DNA from: Candidatus Hadarchaeales archaeon
GTDB taxonomy: Archaea; Hadarchaeota; Hadarchaeia; Hadarchaeales; WYZ-LMO6
Direction of reading: 5' to 3'
DNA length: 64,000 nt
Assembly (NCBI GenBank): GCA_038851755.1
Contig: JAWCKR010000006.1
Location: 2,216-66,215, forward strand
Of the stretch, positions 1,165-31,054 are shown piece by piece. The first letter of the stretch is position 1; each line of letters opens with the position of its first letter. A model generated the notes under the pieces. It saw only the letters and a program-made list of their open reading frames with translations, was not told where the DNA came from and searched no databases. Both the position numbers and the translations under genes were made by a program.

Positions 1165-1251
1165 TGCGGGGGGAGAGATTTGAACTCTCGACGACCCTAA
1201 GGTCACAGGATCTTAAGTCCTGCCCCTTTGACCAGGCTCGGGCACCCCCGC
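1165..1251 (-). tRNA. tRNA-Leu(TAA)
   Basis: GCGGGGG acceptor stem, CAGGA-CT TAA GA-TCCTG anticodon arm, long variable arm, GTTCAAATC T-loop; CCA not encoded. Confidence 0.95.
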
Positions 1252-4659: not shown

Positions 4660-4765
4660 TGGTGCCCCGGGCGGGATTTGAACCCGCGTCTGTGGCTCGA
4701 TTGGCCTGGACGACTCCTCGCCGTCCATGAGGCCACTATGATTGGCCGGGCTACACCACCGGGGC
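4660..4765 (-). tRNA. tRNA-Glu(CTC) with a 28-nt intron (4701-4728) inside the anticodon
   Basis: GCCCCGG..CCGGGGC-ACCA with a Glu-type D-arm; removing 4701-4728 at the BHB-like sites gives GTGGC-CT CTC GA-GCCAC. Confidence 0.9.
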
Positions 4766-26895: not shown

Positions 26896-27828
26896 ATGGA
26901 GAAGCTGATTATCACCGTGGCCCCCACGGGAGGGGAGTTCGTTTCCAAGATGTTCACCCCCCATGTCCCCTGCACGGTGGAGGAAATCGTGGAGGAGGTG
27001 GTGAGGTGCCGCAGGGCGGGGGCCTCCGTGGTCCACCTGCACGCCAAGGACCCAGAGACGGGGTTCCCACACCCCCAGCCCAACTCCGTCTTTCCCGAGT
27101 ACGTGAGGAGGATCAGGGAGAGCGAGGCCTCGGACATCATCATCAACCTCACCACGGGGGGAGGAAGGCCCCTGCCCGGTCCCCTGGCGGAGATGCTGGG
27201 GAGGAAGACGGAGATGACCCCGGAGGAGTACCGGAGGAGCCTGGACAGGGTGATGGAGGAGAGGATGACCTTCGGGCAGGAAATGAGTTCCCTGAACATG
27301 GGCTCCATCAACCTCTGGGAGGACATGGGCTTCCCCTCCCTCAGGGAGGAGATCTTCGACAACCCCGTGGCCAGGATAGAGAGGTGGGCGGAGTACATGT
27401 ACCGCAACGGGGTGAAGCCCGAGCTAGAGATCTACGACACGGGTCAGATCAACACCGCCAAGGTCCTGGTGGAGGAGGGAAAGCTGAAGGAGCCCCTTCA
27501 CGTCCAGTTCGTGATGATGGGCGGGCTCTCCTGCATGTCCCCCACCGCGGACACCCTCCTTTACTGCGTGAGGGCCTTGCCCGCGGGGTGGACCTGGTCG
27601 GTGTGTGCGCCCGGGAGGCACGAGATGCCCATGGCGGCCCTGGCCATTCTCCTGGGGGGTCACGTGAGGGTGGGGATGGAGGACAACCTCTACGTGGAGA
27701 AGGGGGTGCTGGCGAAGAGCAACGCCGAGCTGGTGGAGAAGGTGGTCAGGCTGGCGAAGGAGCTGGGCAGGGAGGTGGCCTCCCCCGAGGAGGCCCGCAG
27801 GATCCTGGGCCTCAAGCCCAGGTCCTAG
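26896..27828 (+). CDS. Beta-keto acid cleavage enzyme (BKACE/DUF849, Kce family)
   Basis: IITVAPTG, VHLHAK, NLTTGG, KPELEIYD and HVRVGMEDN motifs. Confidence 0.9.
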   Translation: MEKLIITVAPTGGEFVSKMFTPHVPCTVEEIVEEVVRCRRAGASVVHLHAKDPETGFPHPQPNSVFPEYVRRIRESEASDIIINLTTGGGRPLPGPLAEMLGRKTEMTPEEYRRSLDRVMEERMTFGQEMSSLNMGSINLWEDMGFPSLREEIFDNPVARIERWAEYMYRNGVKPELEIYDTGQINTAKVLVEEGKLKEPLHVQFVMMGGLSCMSPTADTLLYCVRALPAGWTWSVCAPGRHEMPMAALAILLGGHVRVGMEDNLYVEKGVLAKSNAELVEKVVRLAKELGREVASPEEARRILGLKPRS

Positions 27829-28235
27829 CCTTCGGGCTTCAGCTCCAGGGTCTCCCACCTCACCCTTCCTCCCTCCACCACCTCCTTGATCTTCCTCTCC
27901 ACGGGAGTGAGGACGCTCCTCCCCGTCTTCACCTCCAGGAACACCACCTCCGTGGGCTCCCCCCTGCTGTGCCCCTCGAAGATCACGTAGTCCACCGGGG
28001 AGCCTATGAAGCGGGCGTCGGAGGGCTCGTACTTGAACTGTGGGAGGAGGGGGGCCATCTGTTCCCCTATCCTCCCCTTCAGGACGGCCCTGCTCCTCTC
28101 CAGGGCCTCCCTCCTGAGGGTTTCCTCCACTTCAAGCTTCCATCTCTCCAGCTTGCTCCTGAAGAGGGAGAGGAGGAAGAGATAGGCTGCTCCCAGCCCC
28201 AGCAGGAAGCCCAGCAGCAGCCAGAGGGTCTCCAT
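27825..28235 (-). CDS. Membrane-anchored Holliday-junction-resolvase-like endonuclease
   Basis: N-terminal TM helix; SRAVLKGRIGEQ, FIGSPVDY and FLEVKTG PD-(D/E)XK motifs. Confidence 0.85.
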   Translation of the reverse strand: METLWLLLGFLLGLGAAYLFLLSLFRSKLERWKLEVEETLRREALERSRAVLKGRIGEQMAPLLPQFKYEPSDARFIGSPVDYVIFEGHSRGEPTEVVFLEVKTGRSVLTPVERKIKEVVEGGRVRWETLELKPEG

Positions 28236-28388
28236 CCTCCTCTTTTCTGAAAGGAGCAGGTAAAGCCTTTGTATCCAGGCAAAAAGGCTGGGGGAAAATT
28301 CTTGAGTCCTCTTTTAAAAGGAATAAATCCGACTCGAATGAGAAGCAGGGCTATAGGAGGACGGATGGAGGACCTCTAAGGGACCGGA

Positions 28389-30086
28389 ATGGAGGGAGTC
28401 CTGAAAAAGACGGTGAAGCTGAAGCTGAATATAGAGCCTACAGAGTTGGAAGAGGTGATGAGTAAGTACTCAGCCGCCGTGAACTTTTACATCAAGCGCT
28501 GCTTCCAGGTTCTAACCAACAACCGTTGGCTAGGAAAGAGTGAGAGGTTCCAGGCTACCTGTTCGTCGTGCGGGACCGAAGGTACCGTGGTCTCCGTCGG
28601 GTCTCTGGGAAGCTTGTGCGCCGACTGCCGTAGGAACATGCTTAGTTACAATGCCCTGCGCAAACGTTTCACTCCTACCAAAGAGAGGCGCGTACCGGCC
28701 GCAGATAATGTTTACCTCGCGGCTCGTAACTTATCGCCTACCCTCGCCGCTCAGGCTTTTCAGCATGCACAGGCAATTCTCAAGAGCTGGTTTGCCCTGA
28801 AAAAGAAGAGGGATTACGCACTTAGGGACGTGGAGAAGAAGCTAAGGCTCTGGAAGGAAGTCCTGGAAGACAGCGAAGTGGTGGCGGGGGAGGGGAAGAT
28901 TAAAGCACGCGTAGTGGTGCCCCCCAAGGGACGACAGCGTCTGCCTAGGTTCAAGCATGTCCTTCACCCGGAGAACTTCAAAGGAAGGACCCTGAGGGGG
29001 ATAGAGCTAGCCATCGAAAAACTGGAGAGGAGACGTCGCGCACTTTTGAAAGAGCAGTTGCCCCCCAAGTTCCGCGGAGAATCGATGTGGCTTCACAAGA
29101 ACTCGATAAAATTCTTGGACGAGCGGAGGGTCAAGCTCGTGCTGGAAGGGAAGCACATGGAAGTGCAATTTCATGCTTTGGAGGTCGAGCGCGAAAAGAG
29201 CAGAGATTACCTAATGAGGTATGTTCGCTTAGCGCTCGAGATGCAGGAGAGAAACATCCATGCCTATCCCAGGTTGCTCATTGAAAACGGTTCTTGCTTC
29301 CTGGAGTTTCCGGTCAGGATACCCTTTGGGACACCAGAGCCTGACGAAACTTTCGGGGCAGTGGGTATCGACCGTGGGGTCAACTCGCTTATAGCTTTTG
29401 CTGCGGTCAACCGCTACTTGGGCAAGCCCCATCATTTGTGGTTGGCGAGCGGTGGGGAATTGTCCTTGCTTAGGGCGAAGGGAAGGCTGCTCCGGAGGAG
29501 GTTATATGAGGTGGGCAAAGTTCACCGCGAGCAGGGGAAGCGTTTCCGGTTACGCAGGAGATTAAAATCGATGAAGAAAGAGAGTGAGCTCTCGAAACAT
29601 ATCCTGCATGGGATTGCGAAGTCCGTGGTGAGGAAGGCGAAGGAGCTGTATCCCGACGGACGCGTGGTTATAGTAATGGAGAAGCTCGAAGGCCTTCGCC
29701 CGGTGAAAGGGAAGAAGCATGAGCGCTCTTTGAATTTCAAGCTTTCGAGTTTTGCATACAGGAGGCTCGGGGAATACATACATTACAAGGCTCAGGAGGA
29801 GGGAATACCCGTAATTTTCGTACCACCCTCAGGGACCTCCACCAGGTGTTCTAAGTGCGGTTGCGACAATCCCTCTAACAGGTCAGGTGGTTTCTTTAGG
29901 TGCTCCAATTGTGGATTCCAAATGAACGCTGACCTGAACGCTGCAATAAACATTGCCAACCGCTTCTACGAAAATTTTAAAGGCGGAGAAAAACAGAACG
30001 GAATTGGGGCCGAGGAACGCCCGGACCCCTCGGCTCCGAGTAGGTCAAGCTCACCAGAAGGTGAGGAGCGCGCCCCTAACCCCTGA
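28389..30086 (+). CDS. cas12f: Type V-F CRISPR effector, Cas12f2 (Cas14b)-like RuvC nuclease, 565 aa
   Basis: RuvC-I GIDRG, RuvC-II VMEKL, RuvC-III NADLNAAINIA, C-terminal CSKC/CSNC Zn finger, N-terminal CSSC..CADC Zn finger; followed by tracrRNA and repeats. Confidence 0.85.
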   Translation: MEGVLKKTVKLKLNIEPTELEEVMSKYSAAVNFYIKRCFQVLTNNRWLGKSERFQATCSSCGTEGTVVSVGSLGSLCADCRRNMLSYNALRKRFTPTKERRVPAADNVYLAARNLSPTLAAQAFQHAQAILKSWFALKKKRDYALRDVEKKLRLWKEVLEDSEVVAGEGKIKARVVVPPKGRQRLPRFKHVLHPENFKGRTLRGIELAIEKLERRRRALLKEQLPPKFRGESMWLHKNSIKFLDERRVKLVLEGKHMEVQFHALEVEREKSRDYLMRYVRLALEMQERNIHAYPRLLIENGSCFLEFPVRIPFGTPEPDETFGAVGIDRGVNSLIAFAAVNRYLGKPHHLWLASGGELSLLRAKGRLLRRRLYEVGKVHREQGKRFRLRRRLKSMKKESELSKHILHGIAKSVVRKAKELYPDGRVVIVMEKLEGLRPVKGKKHERSLNFKLSSFAYRRLGEYIHYKAQEEGIPVIFVPPSGTSTRCSKCGCDNPSNRSGGFFRCSNCGFQMNADLNAAINIANRFYENFKGGEKQNGIGAEERPDPSAPSRSSSPEGEERAPNP

Positions 30087-30242
30087 AAGAAGGGGGACGG
30101 CAAGCGTGCTCGGGCAGCGTCGCACTGCCAGAGCTCGGACCTGCCCCGCTTTCGAGCGGGATGCAAGGCTCCGGCCCCGATGACATGAGGGGACGGGTCA
30201 GAACGGGCGACGCCTTCCCAACTTTTGAACGTCTTTATAAAC
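30006..30242 (+). ncRNA. Putative tracrRNA of Cas12f
   Basis: Series of hairpins; loop GTCGCA (30119-30124) is complementary to the repeat end TGCGAC; anti-repeat at 30217-30242; exact ends uncertain. Confidence 0.8.
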
Positions 30243-30324
30243 CTTCTTTGTAAAAACCGAAGTTCAAACGGTGGGAACCAGGGAGTCCAGTGGGGCCGTA
30301 CTGGCATCACCAGAAACGAGGGGG

Positions 30325-30469
30325 GTTTCAATAGACTCAGGAGTTGGGTGGGTGATGCGACCACTACGGAGTTGTACTTTTCTCCCTCAGGAGGTGAGGA
30401 TTCTCGCCTTGACGAGGCGAAGATCTTGGGTTGTTTCAATGGACCCAGGAGTTGGGTAGGTCATATCTT
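30325..30469 (+). CRISPR. Minimal CRISPR array: two 37-nt repeats and one 71-nt spacer
   Basis: R1 GTTTCAATAGACTCAGGAGTTGGGTGGGTGATGCGAC (30325-30361); R2 GTTTCAATGGACCCAGGAGTTGGGTAGGTCATATCTT (30433-30469), 28/37 identical and degenerate at the 3' end. Confidence 0.8.
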
Positions 30470-30484
30470 AAAGTTAGATGGGGT

Positions 30485-31054
30485 TTACCTGAGCCTGGCC
30501 CCCAGGTGGGCTAGTGTGGCCTTCTTCACTTCCTCGGCTTTCTTCCTCCCCACCAAGTGCTTCAGGAGCTCAAGGGCGAAGGCGAAGGCAGTGGCCGGTC
30601 CCATGCTGGTGATGATCTTCCCGTCCGCCACCACCAGTCCCCTTGAGGGCTTCCCTCCGCCCTTCTTCAGCTCCGCTTCCATGCCGGGGTAGATGGTGCT
30701 CTTCTTCCCCCTGAGCACCCCAGCCTCTGCGAGGACGGAGGGGGCACCGCAGATGGCAGCCACGATTAACCCCCTCTCAGCCGCTTCCCTCACCAGCTCC
30801 AGCACCTTCCGGTTTTTCCTGAGGTTCTCGTACCCGGGATACCCTCCGGGACAGATCACGGCGTCGAAGTCCCTCACGCTGACTTCCTCCAGCTTGCGGT
30901 CAGGAATCACCTTCACCCCGTGCGATCCCTCCACCGGCGTCTCCAGTCCCGCCGTCACCACCTCCACCCCTCCCCTCCTGAGGAGGTCCACCACCGTCAT
31001 GGCCTCCACCTCCTCGAAGCCCGGGGCCAGGAAGACGAGGGCCTTCACCATCAT
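30485..31054 (-). CDS. DJ-1/PfpI (YajL-like) protein
   Basis: GFEEVEA, CPGG, AAICGAP and TSMGPAT motifs. Confidence 0.92.
   Translation of the reverse strand: MMVKALVFLAPGFEEVEAMTVVDLLRRGGVEVVTAGLETPVEGSHGVKVIPDRKLEEVSVRDFDAVICPGGYPGYENLRKNRKVLELVREAAERGLIVAAICGAPSVLAEAGVLRGKKSTIYPGMEAELKKGGGKPSRGLVVADGKIITSMGPATAFAFALELLKHLVGRKKAEEVKKATLAHLGARLR

What the first reader, a model, noticed from the sequence alone, without database searches (positions are those of the whole stretch)
28389..30469. Complete miniature type V-F (Cas12f2/Cas14b-like) CRISPR system in a probable thermophilic archaeon
Seen: in about 2.1 kb, a 565-aa nuclease with all three RuvC acidic residues and two Zn fingers, then a structured RNA with two anti-repeats, then 37-nt repeats. 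The N-terminal half (NNRWLGK, CxxC..CxxC, RKRFTPTKERRV, KGRTLRGI) matches my recollection of Cas14b/Cas12f2 proteins described from DPANN archaea, not ordinary ~400-aa TnpB. The host has broad amino-acid biosynthesis and does not look like DPANN. Inference: an undescribed, possibly thermostable compact RNA-guided nuclease whose guide can be designed directly from this sequence. Automatic annotation would probably call it a transposase and miss the two-repeat array.
Basis: partly seen in the sequence, partly recalled or inferred. Interest (0 to 1): 0.92.

Follow-up and report, generated by a model that had tools for sequence, protein, structure and literature searches.

The report
Minimal Cas12f2 CRISPR cassette in hot-spring archaeon
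A 2.2-kb inserted cassette in a hot-spring archaeal genome carries a small RNA-guided nuclease of the known Cas12f2 family with its helper RNA and a tiny CRISPR array, so it is a genuine but not fundamentally new system.

Summary
Window 28389-30086 (+) encodes a 565-aa protein that matches NCBIfam NF049972 "type V CRISPR-associated effector Cas12f2" end to end (554.8 bits, cut-off 450). The RuvC residues D328/E431/D515 and two CxxC..CxxC zinc fingers are intact. Downstream lie a conserved, structured ~225-nt tracrRNA region (30005-30229), a promoter-bearing leader, and two 37-nt repeats (30325-30361 and 30433-30469, the second degenerate) around one odd 71-nt spacer.

The tracrRNA is 89% identical to that of the only close relative found (G037, protein 57% identical). 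It carries a hairpin loop and a 3' anti-repeat that match the repeat. The same two-part design is seen in 8 of 8 and 7 of 8 Cas12f2 loci examined.

The gene is single-copy. The cassette is low in GC and absent at the same site in three same-genus genomes. Filled and empty sites, and other spacers, coexist in hot-spring metagenomes. There is no adjacent cas1/2/4; one such module sits elsewhere in the genome beside an array with a look-alike leader.

Verdict: a new member of a known kind, in an uncharacterised thermophile subclade. Activity is inferred, not shown.

The parts
28271..30483 (.). Inserted cassette (about 2.21 kb) between a Holliday-resolvase-like small gene (27825-28235, -) and a DJ-1/PfpI gene (30485-31054, -). 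TTT is present at both junctions (28268-28270 and 30484-30486).
   Evidence: Same-genus genomes G003 and G004 join the two flanks with 29 and 6 nt between them, and G002 also lacks the cassette. GC is 53.5% against 61.6% for the window. Metagenome contigs join 28242 to 30484/30485 with 29 other letters between.
28312..28319 (+). TTTTAAAA, a TATA-like element about 70 nt upstream of the cas12f2 start (putative promoter).
   Evidence: Read directly from the sequence. This is inference only.
28389..30086 (+). cas12f2 ORF, 565 aa. The conserved part ends near residue 532. Residues 533-565 are an unconserved tail translated across the tracrRNA region.
   Evidence: NF049972 scores 554.8 bits against a cut-off of 450, covering residues 8-530. 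Catalytic and zinc-binding residues are intact. AF2 model pLDDT is 84.7, with the tail below 50. The best solved folds are Cas12f1-type.
29975..29981 (+). TTTTAAA, a TATA-like element inside the gene's 3' end, about 25-30 nt before hairpin 1 (putative tracrRNA promoter).
   Evidence: An A/T-rich block aligns at the same place in L164. This is inference only.
30005..30229 (+). Putative tracrRNA. The ends are inferred. It overlaps the last 82 nt of the ORF.
   Evidence: 89% identical over 173 nt to G037 against 57% protein identity. Fold z-scores are -2.68 and -3.90, with 0 of 200 shuffles as good in each. Three compensatory pairs appear in the two-sequence consensus fold.
30005..30038 (+). Hairpin 1 of the tracrRNA (11-bp stem).
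   Evidence: It is predicted in the window and at the equivalent place in L164. The stem sequences are entirely different while the loop is similar.
30113..30129 (+). Hairpin whose 7-nt loop (30118-30124, CGUCGCA) is complementary to the repeat's last six bases UGCGAC (anti-repeat 1).
   Evidence: In 8 of 8 Cas12f2 loci the loop hexamer GU(U/C)GCA is complementary to the local repeat end UGC(A/G)AC. The stem covaries: score 0.55 against 0.14 in shuffles, 0 of 500 reaching it, and slid controls at most 0.064.
30206..30229 (+). Anti-repeat 2, which pairs with repeat nt 12-35 (20 bp including G-U pairs).
   Evidence: RNAduplex gives -30.3 kcal/mol, with 0 of 1000 shuffled repeats as good. The same relative position is seen in 7 of 8 loci. 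The duplex with the host's other repeat is only -10.
30230..30324 (+). CRISPR leader with TATA box TTTATAAA (30234-30241) and motif AAAAACCGAAGTTCA (30252-30266).
   Evidence: It aligns with the leaders of the host's C2 array and of L164. The 12-mer AACCGAAGTTCA occurs only twice in the genome, at the two leaders, each 21 nt after TTTATAAA.
30325..30361 (+). CRISPR repeat 1 (37 nt, GTTTCAAT...GATGCGAC).
   Evidence: Length and termini match the family repeats (37 nt, ending ATGCAAC in 6 loci and ATGCGAC in L164).
30362..30432 (+). Single spacer, 71 nt. Its last 29 nt (30404-30432) are a 28/29 copy of the host tRNA-Val(GAC) gene.
   Evidence: It matches C3:54370-54398 at E 6e-8. The same 29-mer with 1 mismatch is in 4 of 5 other genomes of the host family. 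The first 24 nt have no exact match in viral contigs.
30433..30469 (+). Repeat 2, the degenerate terminal repeat. It matches repeat 1 at 28 of 37 positions, and the last 5 nt all differ, so the UGCGAC end is lost.

Best explanation
This is a bona fide type V-F2 (Cas12f2/Cas14b-family) CRISPR interference module in its smallest form: effector gene, tracrRNA, leader and a one-spacer array. It is carried on a ~2.2-kb horizontally acquired cassette in a Hadarchaeales archaeon from hot springs.

Likely mechanism, inferred from the anatomy and from the family:
1. The tracrRNA (about 30005-30229) and the pre-crRNA (started by the leader TATA box at 30234) are made from the + strand.
2. The repeat's 3' part pairs with the tracrRNA at two places. 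Its last six bases pair with a hairpin loop, and nt 12-31 pair with the tracrRNA 3' end.
3. The Cas12f2 protein binds this dual RNA.
4. The first ~20 nt of the spacer guide PAM-dependent cleavage of double-stranded DNA by the single RuvC site (D328/E431/D515).
5. New spacers are probably supplied in trans by the genome's only cas2-csa1-cas1-cas4 module, whose array has a near-identical leader core and the same first nine repeat bases.

Shown here: family membership, intact catalytic and zinc sites, a conserved and covarying tracrRNA, the cognate repeat, single copy, the insertion, and population variation.

Inferred: transcription, RNA ends, cleavage, PAM, trans adaptation and thermostability.
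For: Protein:
- Family HMM above its cut-off over the full length.
- Invariant D/E/D and eight Cys.
- A tree places it inside the array-linked long-protein clade.
- Foldseek's best hits are Cas12f1 ternary complexes (8j12, E 2.9e-17), ahead of TnpB (8h1j, rank 30).

tracrRNA:
- 89% identical to G037's, against 57% for the protein.
- Fold z-scores -2.68 and -3.90.
- Loop-to-repeat-end complementarity in 8 of 8 loci, with a U-A to C-G switch in the window subclade.
- Hairpin stem covariation, 0 of 500 shuffles reaching the observed score.
- Anti-repeat 2 at -30.3 kcal/mol, 0 of 1000 shuffles as good, and positioned as in 7 of 8 loci.

Locus architecture:
- 7 of 8 more distant full-length loci have a 37-nt-repeat array 240-450 nt after the gene.
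- Published Cas12f2 minimal loci are arranged gene, putative tracrRNA, array, and cut dsDNA after position 21 next to a 5' T-rich PAM (PMC7229846, section 15).

Population data:
- A contig in run X4 has an extra 37-nt spacer between two repeat copies.
- Other sequences follow the repeat in X2 and X9.

Leader: motifs are shared with the host's Cas1-linked array.
Against: - No expression or activity data. No run is reliably RNA.
- The array in this assembly has one spacer of abnormal length (71 nt), and its terminal repeat has lost the conserved 3' end.
- There are no adaptation genes in the cassette. Trans use of the C2 module is inferred from leader similarity only, and the two repeats differ after base 9.
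- In the closest relative, L164, anti-repeat 2 is weak: -13.3 kcal/mol with 230 of 1000 shuffles as good, and 154 of 300 in the whole-intergenic test.
- The loop/repeat-end covariation amounts to one evolutionary event (the window subclade against the rest).
- No protospacer was found, so no PAM can be given.
- The assembly may under-represent the array.
Confidence: 0.85

Rival explanations
1. Decaying orphan: a once-functional Cas12f2 locus that has lost its adaptation genes and almost all of its array. It is no longer used for defence, or has been co-opted for some non-defence role.
For: - Only two repeats, the second degenerate at the functionally conserved 3' end.
- One 71-nt spacer, against 35-40 nt in 7 other arrays, partly made of host tRNA sequence.
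- No cas1/2/4 in the cassette, whereas 5 of 8 distant loci have cas1 and cas2 next to the gene and L011 has a cas4 match only.
- The empty-site allele is deeper than the filled one in 2 of the 3 runs that show both alleles.
Against: - The ORF is intact with all catalytic and zinc residues.
- The tracrRNA is far better conserved than the protein (89% against 57%).
- Repeat 1 keeps the conserved end and strong anti-repeat pairing.
- Population contigs show additional canonical 37-nt spacers after the same repeat, which implies recent adaptation.
Confidence: 0.1
2. IS200/IS605-type TnpB transposon: the nuclease and its 3' RNA are a TnpB/omega-RNA pair, and the 'repeats' are transposon-end features.
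For: - Precise presence/absence polymorphism of a 2.2-kb unit.
- The RNA overlaps the 3' end of the ORF in the window, as omega RNAs do.
- The general TnpB-family model NF040570 also matches (128.5 bits).
Against: - One copy in the genome.
- The RNA's DNA is found in only 2 of 66 genomes of the phylum.
- NF038281 IS200_TnpB scores 37.8 bits against a cut-off of 425.
- No TnpA, no terminal inverted or subterminal hairpin repeats, and only TTT at the junctions.
- The protein is nested among CRISPR-array-linked genes.
- Repeats have the family's 37-nt length and conserved end.
- Variable spacers occur after the repeat.
Confidence: 0.02
3. Assembly artefact of the array: the real array in this strain is longer, and the two-repeat, 71-nt-spacer form arises from collapse or mis-joining of repeats in a metagenome assembly.
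For: - Contigs of runs X2 and X4 stop inside repeat 1 (at 30354).
- Loose ends with other sequences follow 30361 in X2 and X9.
- A loop-back joint 30361>30325 in X4 carries a different 37-nt spacer.
- The host's other array lies at a contig end.
Against: A 440-nt contig of run X1 covers 30075-30514 with no difference, spanning tracrRNA, leader, repeat 1, the 71-nt spacer, repeat 2 and the flank (table 8). X1 may be the sample the window was assembled from, so it is not independent. Collapse of repeats would give a normal-length spacer, not a 71-nt one.
Confidence: 0.2

Closest known systems
Cas12f2 (Cas14b), type V-F2 CRISPR-Cas: Mi1Cas12f2 (Cas14b4), Mi2Cas12f2 and AuCas12f2 of Karvelis et al. 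2020 (PMC7229846)
   Same: The same protein family by a curated HMM. The length class is about 520-590 aa, with an N-terminal CxxC..CxxC finger, a RuvC triad and a TNB zinc ribbon. The locus order is gene, tracrRNA, array, with 37-nt repeats. The expected activity is dsDNA cleavage with a 5' T-rich PAM, but this comes from the paper's section 15 and was not tested here.
   Different: - At most about 36% identical to members outside its own 5-row subclade.
- The repeat ends ATGCGAC instead of ATGCAAC, with a matching change in the tracrRNA loop.
- No adjacent cas1-cas2-cas4.
- The host is a non-DPANN Hadarchaeales archaeon from hot springs, with 61.6% GC over the window.
- The array has two repeats.

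I could not compare directly with the published Mi1, Mi2 and Au sequences.
   Same: The protein is 57% identical. The tracrRNA is 89% identical, with compensatory changes. It shares the leader core and the ATGCGAC repeat end. It also lacks adjacent cas1/2/4 on its 9.5-kb contig.
   Different: - It has five repeats with normal 35-38-nt spacers.
- The gene stops before the tracrRNA rather than overlapping it.
- The middle of the repeat differs, and anti-repeat 2 is weak.
Cas12f1 (Cas14a/V-U3; for example AsCas12f 8j12 and Un1Cas12f1 7c7l)
   Same: These are the best solved-structure matches (Foldseek E 2.9e-17, TM by target about 0.6). A two-part repeat:anti-repeat design is recalled from Cas12f1 structures, but was not checked here.
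   Different: Only 14-17% identical. Sequence profiles align mainly to the C-terminal RuvC half (profile positions about 276-511 of 525). No Cas12f2 structure was found in the PDB copies searched.
IS200/IS605 TnpB with omega RNA
   Same: A shared RuvC/TNB core (NF040570 at 128.5 bits), and a guide-RNA scaffold encoded at or after the 3' end of the gene.
   Different: The window's locus has an extra ~190-residue N-terminal part with a zinc finger, is single-copy, has a CRISPR repeat-spacer array with a leader, and has no TnpA.

Membership tests
Cas12f2 / type V-F2 CRISPR-Cas | The protein matches the curated family model above its cut-off over the full length. | tested here: met
   NF049972 gives E 2e-166 and 554.8 bits against a cut-off of 450, covering residues 8-530 on model positions 1-523 of 524. 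Of 10 relatives scanned, 5 are above the cut-off at 451-587 bits and 5 are below at 373-401 bits.
Cas12f2 / type V-F2 CRISPR-Cas | An intact tri-split RuvC (D..E..D) and a C-terminal CxxC..CxxC zinc ribbon. | tested here: met
   D328, E431 and D515, plus C487, C490, C505 and C508, are invariant or nearly invariant in 19 sequences. PF07282 matches at E 3.6e-23.
Cas12f2 / type V-F2 CRISPR-Cas | The family-specific N-terminal half with a CxxC..CxxC finger. | tested here: met
   C58 (90% or more of rows) and C61, C77 and C80 (all rows) in 19 rows. The HMM covers the protein from residue 8. That this is a defining feature is my reading of the alignment, not a published criterion.
Cas12f2 / type V-F2 CRISPR-Cas | A CRISPR array next to the effector, with the family's 37-nt repeat. 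| tested here: met
   Two 37-nt repeats begin 239 nt after the stop codon. Repeat 1 ends ATGCGAC, compared with ATGCAAC in 6 loci and ATGCGAC in L164. There are only two copies, and the second is degenerate.
Cas12f2 / type V-F2 CRISPR-Cas | A tracrRNA encoded between the gene and the array, with an anti-repeat. | tested here: met
   Met by computation only: conservation, folding, the loop anti-repeat in 8 of 8 loci, stem covariation, and the 3' anti-repeat. Transcription was not testable, as no reliable RNA run was available.
Cas12f2 / type V-F2 CRISPR-Cas | An adjacent adaptation module cas1-cas2-cas4. This is typical of Cas14b loci but is not an effector-defining feature. | tested here: not met
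   None lies in the cassette or its flanks. The single cas2-csa1-cas1-cas4 set is at the end of contig C2. Cas1 and cas2 are adjacent in 5 of 8 distant loci, L011 has a cas4 match only, and L190 has none.
Cas12f2 / type V-F2 CRISPR-Cas | RNA-guided, PAM-dependent dsDNA cleavage. | not testable with these tools
   This is known for three family members (PMC7229846, section 15). It needs biochemistry for this protein.
IS200/IS605 TnpB | A match to the element-specific TnpB model, and a protein of about 400 aa. | tested here: not met
   NF038281 scores 37.8 bits against a cut-off of 425, and NF038280 scores 36.9 against 350. The protein is 565 aa.
IS200/IS605 TnpB | A mobile element with several copies, TnpA and/or conserved ends. 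| tested here: not met
   There is one copy in the genome. No end repeats were found. The neighbouring genes are a resolvase-like gene and DJ-1/PfpI.

The most novel reading that the evidence does not exclude
The 2.2-kb unit is a self-contained, horizontally mobile 'interference-only' Cas12f2 cassette (promoter, nuclease, tracrRNA, leader, seed array). It hops between Hadarchaeales genomes without any transposase or integrase. It plugs into whatever Cas1-Cas2-Cas4 machinery the host has through a shared leader.

Its odd 71-nt spacer, ending in a copy of the host tRNA-Val gene, would be a relic of, or a weapon against, tRNA-Val-integrating elements. That would make it a living intermediate between TnpB-like selfish nucleases and full CRISPR systems. 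It would also be a natural example of effector modules exchanged independently of adaptation modules within one hot-spring population.
Probability: 0.2. Interest if true: 0.65.

Novelty: new member of a known kind. Interest (0 to 1): 0.45.

Why it matters
Cas12f2 is the least studied branch of the miniature Cas12f nucleases. My library searches found 13 papers holding 'Cas12f2' and 33 holding 'Cas14b', several of the latter unrelated. In the passages I read, only Karvelis et al. reports experiments on it. No solved structure was found.

This locus and its G037 relative define a GC-rich, hot-spring subclade whose guide-RNA parts can be read from the sequence. The tracrRNA boundaries, two anti-repeats, leader and repeat are laid out here, backed by comparison across eight loci. 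That makes a thermophile-derived compact nuclease directly testable.

Biologically, three things offer a small but clean case of modular exchange of CRISPR effector cassettes in nature:
- the presence/absence polymorphism;
- spacer turnover in the same samples;
- a leader shared with the host's only adaptation module.

None of this overturns current understanding.

Tried and rejected
Searches that found nothing or were unavailable:
- Rfam, whole window at gathering thresholds: only three tRNAs, nothing at the locus.
- ARAGORN on 29900-30600: no tRNA, so the tRNA-Val-like piece is a fragment and not a gene.
- The search for related loci with the single protein in genome contigs: nothing.
- The search for related loci with the alignment: the only pattern used was the generic RuvC-III motif, so most of the 160 loci returned are ordinary TnpB. 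I used only the 7 with full-length matches: L004-L008, L011 and L084.
- Protospacer hunts by exact match in viral contigs: 0 hits for the first 24 nt of the window spacer and for the first 26 nt of two L164 spacers. So no PAM can be inferred.
- No RNA holder listed: two runs carry the label METATRANSCRIPTOMIC but are flagged 'probably DNA', and only contigs were available, so nothing can be said on expression.
- Cas3 core, Cmr2, Csm1 and Cas6 families: no match above cut-off in the 93%-complete assembly. This does not show absence.

Considered and dropped:
- That the tracrRNA tail's TTGAAC is a third anti-repeat. It belongs to the leader/promoter block shared with the C2 array.
- That Cas12f2 uses the C2 array. 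The duplex with that repeat is only -10 kcal/mol.
- A homodimer job with complex prediction, because the report makes no binding claim.

Not seen: the supplements of PMC7229846 (Cas12f2 sequences and RNAs). They might already describe the tracrRNA design.
Full report
**What is there.** The window holds an open reading frame at 28389-30086 on the + strand, 565 aa.
- Pfam sees only the Cas12f1-like TNB domain (PF07282, E 3.6e-23).
- NCBIfam's curated model NF049972, 'type V CRISPR-associated effector Cas12f2', matches from residue 8 to 530 over model positions 1-523 of 524. The score is 554.8 bits against a cut-off of 450.
- The element-specific TnpB models are far below cut-off: IS200_TnpB 37.8 against 425, and IS607_TnpB 36.9 against 350.

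In an alignment with 18 full-length relatives, several columns are invariant or nearly so:
- the RuvC residues D328, E431 and D515;
- four N-terminal cysteines (C58, C61, C77, C80);
- four C-terminal cysteines (C487, C490, C505, C508).

An AlphaFold2 model built on that alignment is confident (mean pLDDT 84.7, pTM 0.71) except for residues 437-440 and 533-565. Its best matches among solved structures are Cas12f1 ternary complexes (AsCas12f 8j12, E 2.9e-17). TnpB (8h1j) comes only at rank 30. Neither a profile search of PDB sequences nor the fold search found a Cas12f2 structure.

**How rare and where it sits.**
- An exhaustive HMMER scan of 1.84 billion cluster representatives gave 19 proteins at E up to 1e-30.
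- The word-indexed search gave three close relatives, at 56%, 53% and 43% identity.
- In a quick maximum-likelihood tree of 45 rows, the window protein lies in a 5-row subclade (SH-aLRT 100) with L164/P0002, P0003, P0004 and P0023. The rows were 29 long proteins I chose from the searches and 16 short TnpB-like proteins used as outgroup.
- That subclade is nested in the long-protein clade (98), which contains all eight genes that have an array next to them.
- The gene is single-copy in its 1.25-Mb, 93%-complete genome.

**The RNA and the array.** The repeat finder reported one 37-nt two-copy family. The close relative L164 carries five 37-nt repeats with 35-38-nt spacers. Comparison with it fixes the register:
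- repeat 1 at 30325-30361 (GTTTCAAT...GATGCGAC);
- a 71-nt spacer at 30362-30432;
- repeat 2 at 30433-30469, which matches repeat 1 at 28 of 37 positions and differs at all of the last five.

The repeat occurs nowhere else in the genome.

Between gene and array, window 30040-30225 is 89% identical to the G037 locus over 173 nt. It was found in no other of 66 genomes of the phylum. The proteins are only 57% identical, and the coding DNA is 65-75% identical. The alignment shows several features:
- conserved hairpins with compensatory changes, for example GGCAG..CUGCC against GGCCG..CGGCC;
- a first hairpin whose stems are wholly different in sequence but equal in place;
- an A/T-rich TATA-like block about 25-30 nt before that hairpin in both loci.

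Both RNAs fold better than all 200 shuffles, with z -2.68 and -3.90.

In the window the RNA region starts about 82 nt before the stop codon. In L164 it starts after the stop. The window's last ~33 residues are unconserved and modelled as disordered. I therefore read them as incidental translation across the tracrRNA gene.

**Anti-repeats.** Two parts of the RNA are complementary to the repeat.

(i) The tail 30206-30229 pairs with repeat nt 12-35.
- The duplex energy is -30.3 kcal/mol, and 0 of 1000 shuffled repeats do as well.
- The same tail gives only -10 with the host's other repeat.

(ii) The 7-nt loop of the hairpin at 30113-30129 contains GUCGCA, the complement of the repeat's last six bases UGCGAC.

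I tested both across the family. Six more distant Cas12f2 loci all have 37-nt repeats ending ATGCAAC. Each has exactly one GTTGCA in the gene-to-array spacer, in the loop of a small hairpin. The window and L164 have ATGCGAC and GTCGCA. So loop and repeat end are complementary in 8 of 8 loci, in two versions. In evolutionary terms this is one switch.

The hairpin stem covaries:
- two of five pairs change on both sides;
- the covariation score is 0.55 against 0.14 in shuffles, with 0 of 500 reaching it;
- slid controls are at most 0.064.

The best duplex between the whole gene-to-array region and repeat nt 1-31 lies downstream of that loop in 7 of 8 loci. Where a TATA box is recognisable, the duplex lies just before it. 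Shuffled repeats reach it in at most 2 of 300 trials in 5 loci, in 6 and 16 of 300 in two, and in 154 of 300 in L164, which fails this test.

The design therefore matches the family's. It also agrees with the published layout of Cas12f2 minimal loci: gene, putative tracrRNA, array (PMC7229846, section 15).

**Leader and adaptation.** Window 30230-30324 carries TTTATAAA (30234-30241) and AAAAACCGAAGTTCA (30252-30266). The same two elements, at the same 21-nt spacing, precede the genome's only other array, at the end of contig C2. The 12-mer AACCGAAGTTCA occurs only at these two places in the genome. L164's leader shares the core.

The C2 array follows an AAA-ATPase gene, cas2, csa1, cas1 and cas4. 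Its repeat shares the first nine bases with the window's repeat. Trans adaptation is thus plausible but unproven. No Cas3, Cas10 or Cas6 match above cut-off was found in the assembly. With 7% of the genome missing and the array at a contig end, this does not show absence.

Among the more distant loci, 5 of 8 have cas1 and cas2 next to cas12f2, 3 of them with cas4, and L011 has a cas4 match only. 7 of 8 have an array. The window and G037 share the stripped-down form.

**An insertion, variable in nature.** In same-genus genomes G003 and G004, the resolvase-like gene and the DJ-1/PfpI gene that flank the cassette are 29 and 6 nt apart. G002 also lacks the cassette. The inserted segment is 28271-30483, with TTT at both junctions and no other terminal repeat. 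Its GC content is 53.5% against 61.6% for the window.

The DNA is held by nine runs from three studies, all labelled hot springs metagenome. I laid contigs of four of these runs on the region:
- Three runs contain both the filled site and an empty site, which joins 28242 to 30484/30485 with 29 other letters between. Contig depths, empty against filled, are 2874 against 554, 774 against 176, and 4.4 against 5.2.
- One contig loops from 30361 back to 30325 with 37 new letters. That is a further canonical spacer between two repeat copies.
- Other sequences follow the repeat in two runs.
- A second tracrRNA-like sequence (13 differences in 157 nt) sits on another contig.
- A 440-nt contig of the best holder reproduces the window's two-repeat arrangement exactly. 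That run may be the source sample.

**Host.** The genome search ranks G052 in the same order as the window's genome. Its contig stretch L165 is contained in public locus L008, whose title reads Candidatus Hadarchaeales archaeon. So the host is a Hadarchaeales archaeon, not DPANN. In the one survey I read passages of, 9 of 10 archaeal species with Cas14 homologues were DPANN (PMC10606334). Three of 66 Hadarchaeota genomes searched carry a full-length Cas12f2: G000, G037 and G052.

**Unexplained.** The spacer is twice the normal length. Its last 29 nt are a 28/29 copy of the host's tRNA-Val(GAC) gene, running from the anticodon arm to the 5' strand of the T arm. It could be a spacer taken across the attachment site of a tRNA-integrating element, two fused spacers, or debris. 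Only the first ~20 nt next to repeat 1 should act as guide, and they match nothing I could search. How the cassette moves is also unknown.

**Verdict.** It is a Cas12f2 system by every test available here, in a minimal and recently acquired form, from a thermophile-associated subclade that nobody appears to have characterised. A search for papers holding both 'Hadarchae' and 'Cas12' found one, which is unrelated.

It is a new member of a known kind. Activity, PAM and thermostability remain to be shown. Interest is moderate: useful for tool development and for the natural history of modular CRISPR exchange, but not surprising to a specialist.

Noticed in passing
window 30404-30432; genome contig C3:54350-54425: The 3' 29 nt of the lone spacer copy the host tRNA-Val(GAC) gene at 28 of 29 positions. 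The same 29-mer with one mismatch is in 4 of 5 other genomes of the host family and 2 of 3 of family f5, but in 0 of 46 of family f2.
   Followed up: partly
genome contig C2:115328-119556 (locus L189 11329-15557): The only adaptation module is an AAA-ATPase with an MCM-C winged helix, then cas2, csa1, cas1, cas4, a leader and an array that runs into the contig end. No Cas3, Cas10 or Cas6 match above cut-off was found anywhere in the 93%-complete assembly.
   Followed up: partly
runs X2 and X4, contigs laid on window 30062-30218: A second, related tracrRNA-like sequence (13 differences and 2 gaps in 157 nt) lies on a different contig, with a leader of the C2/L164 type. This suggests another Cas12f2 cassette in the same hot-spring communities.
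   Followed up: no
window 4663-4765 and 1165-1251 (- strand): tRNA matches of 103 and 87 nt, longer than a standard tRNA. They possibly contain introns, as is common in archaea.
   Followed up: no
genome G023 (same order, family f4): Six TnpB-like matches, several at contig ends, indicate a multicopy IS element there. This contrasts with the single Cas12f2 gene in the window's genome.
   Followed up: no
L164 3761-3790: After the last repeat of the G037 array comes ...GTGATGCAAC. This carries the canonical Cas12f2 repeat end (ATGCAAC) but is out of phase with the array. It may be a relic of an older repeat type.
   Followed up: no
window 27825-28235 (-): The small gene left of the cassette matches PF10107, an endonuclease related to the archaeal Holliday junction resolvase (E 4.6e-40). 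It is itself absent at this site in same-genus genome G002, so the neighbourhood is variable.
   Followed up: no
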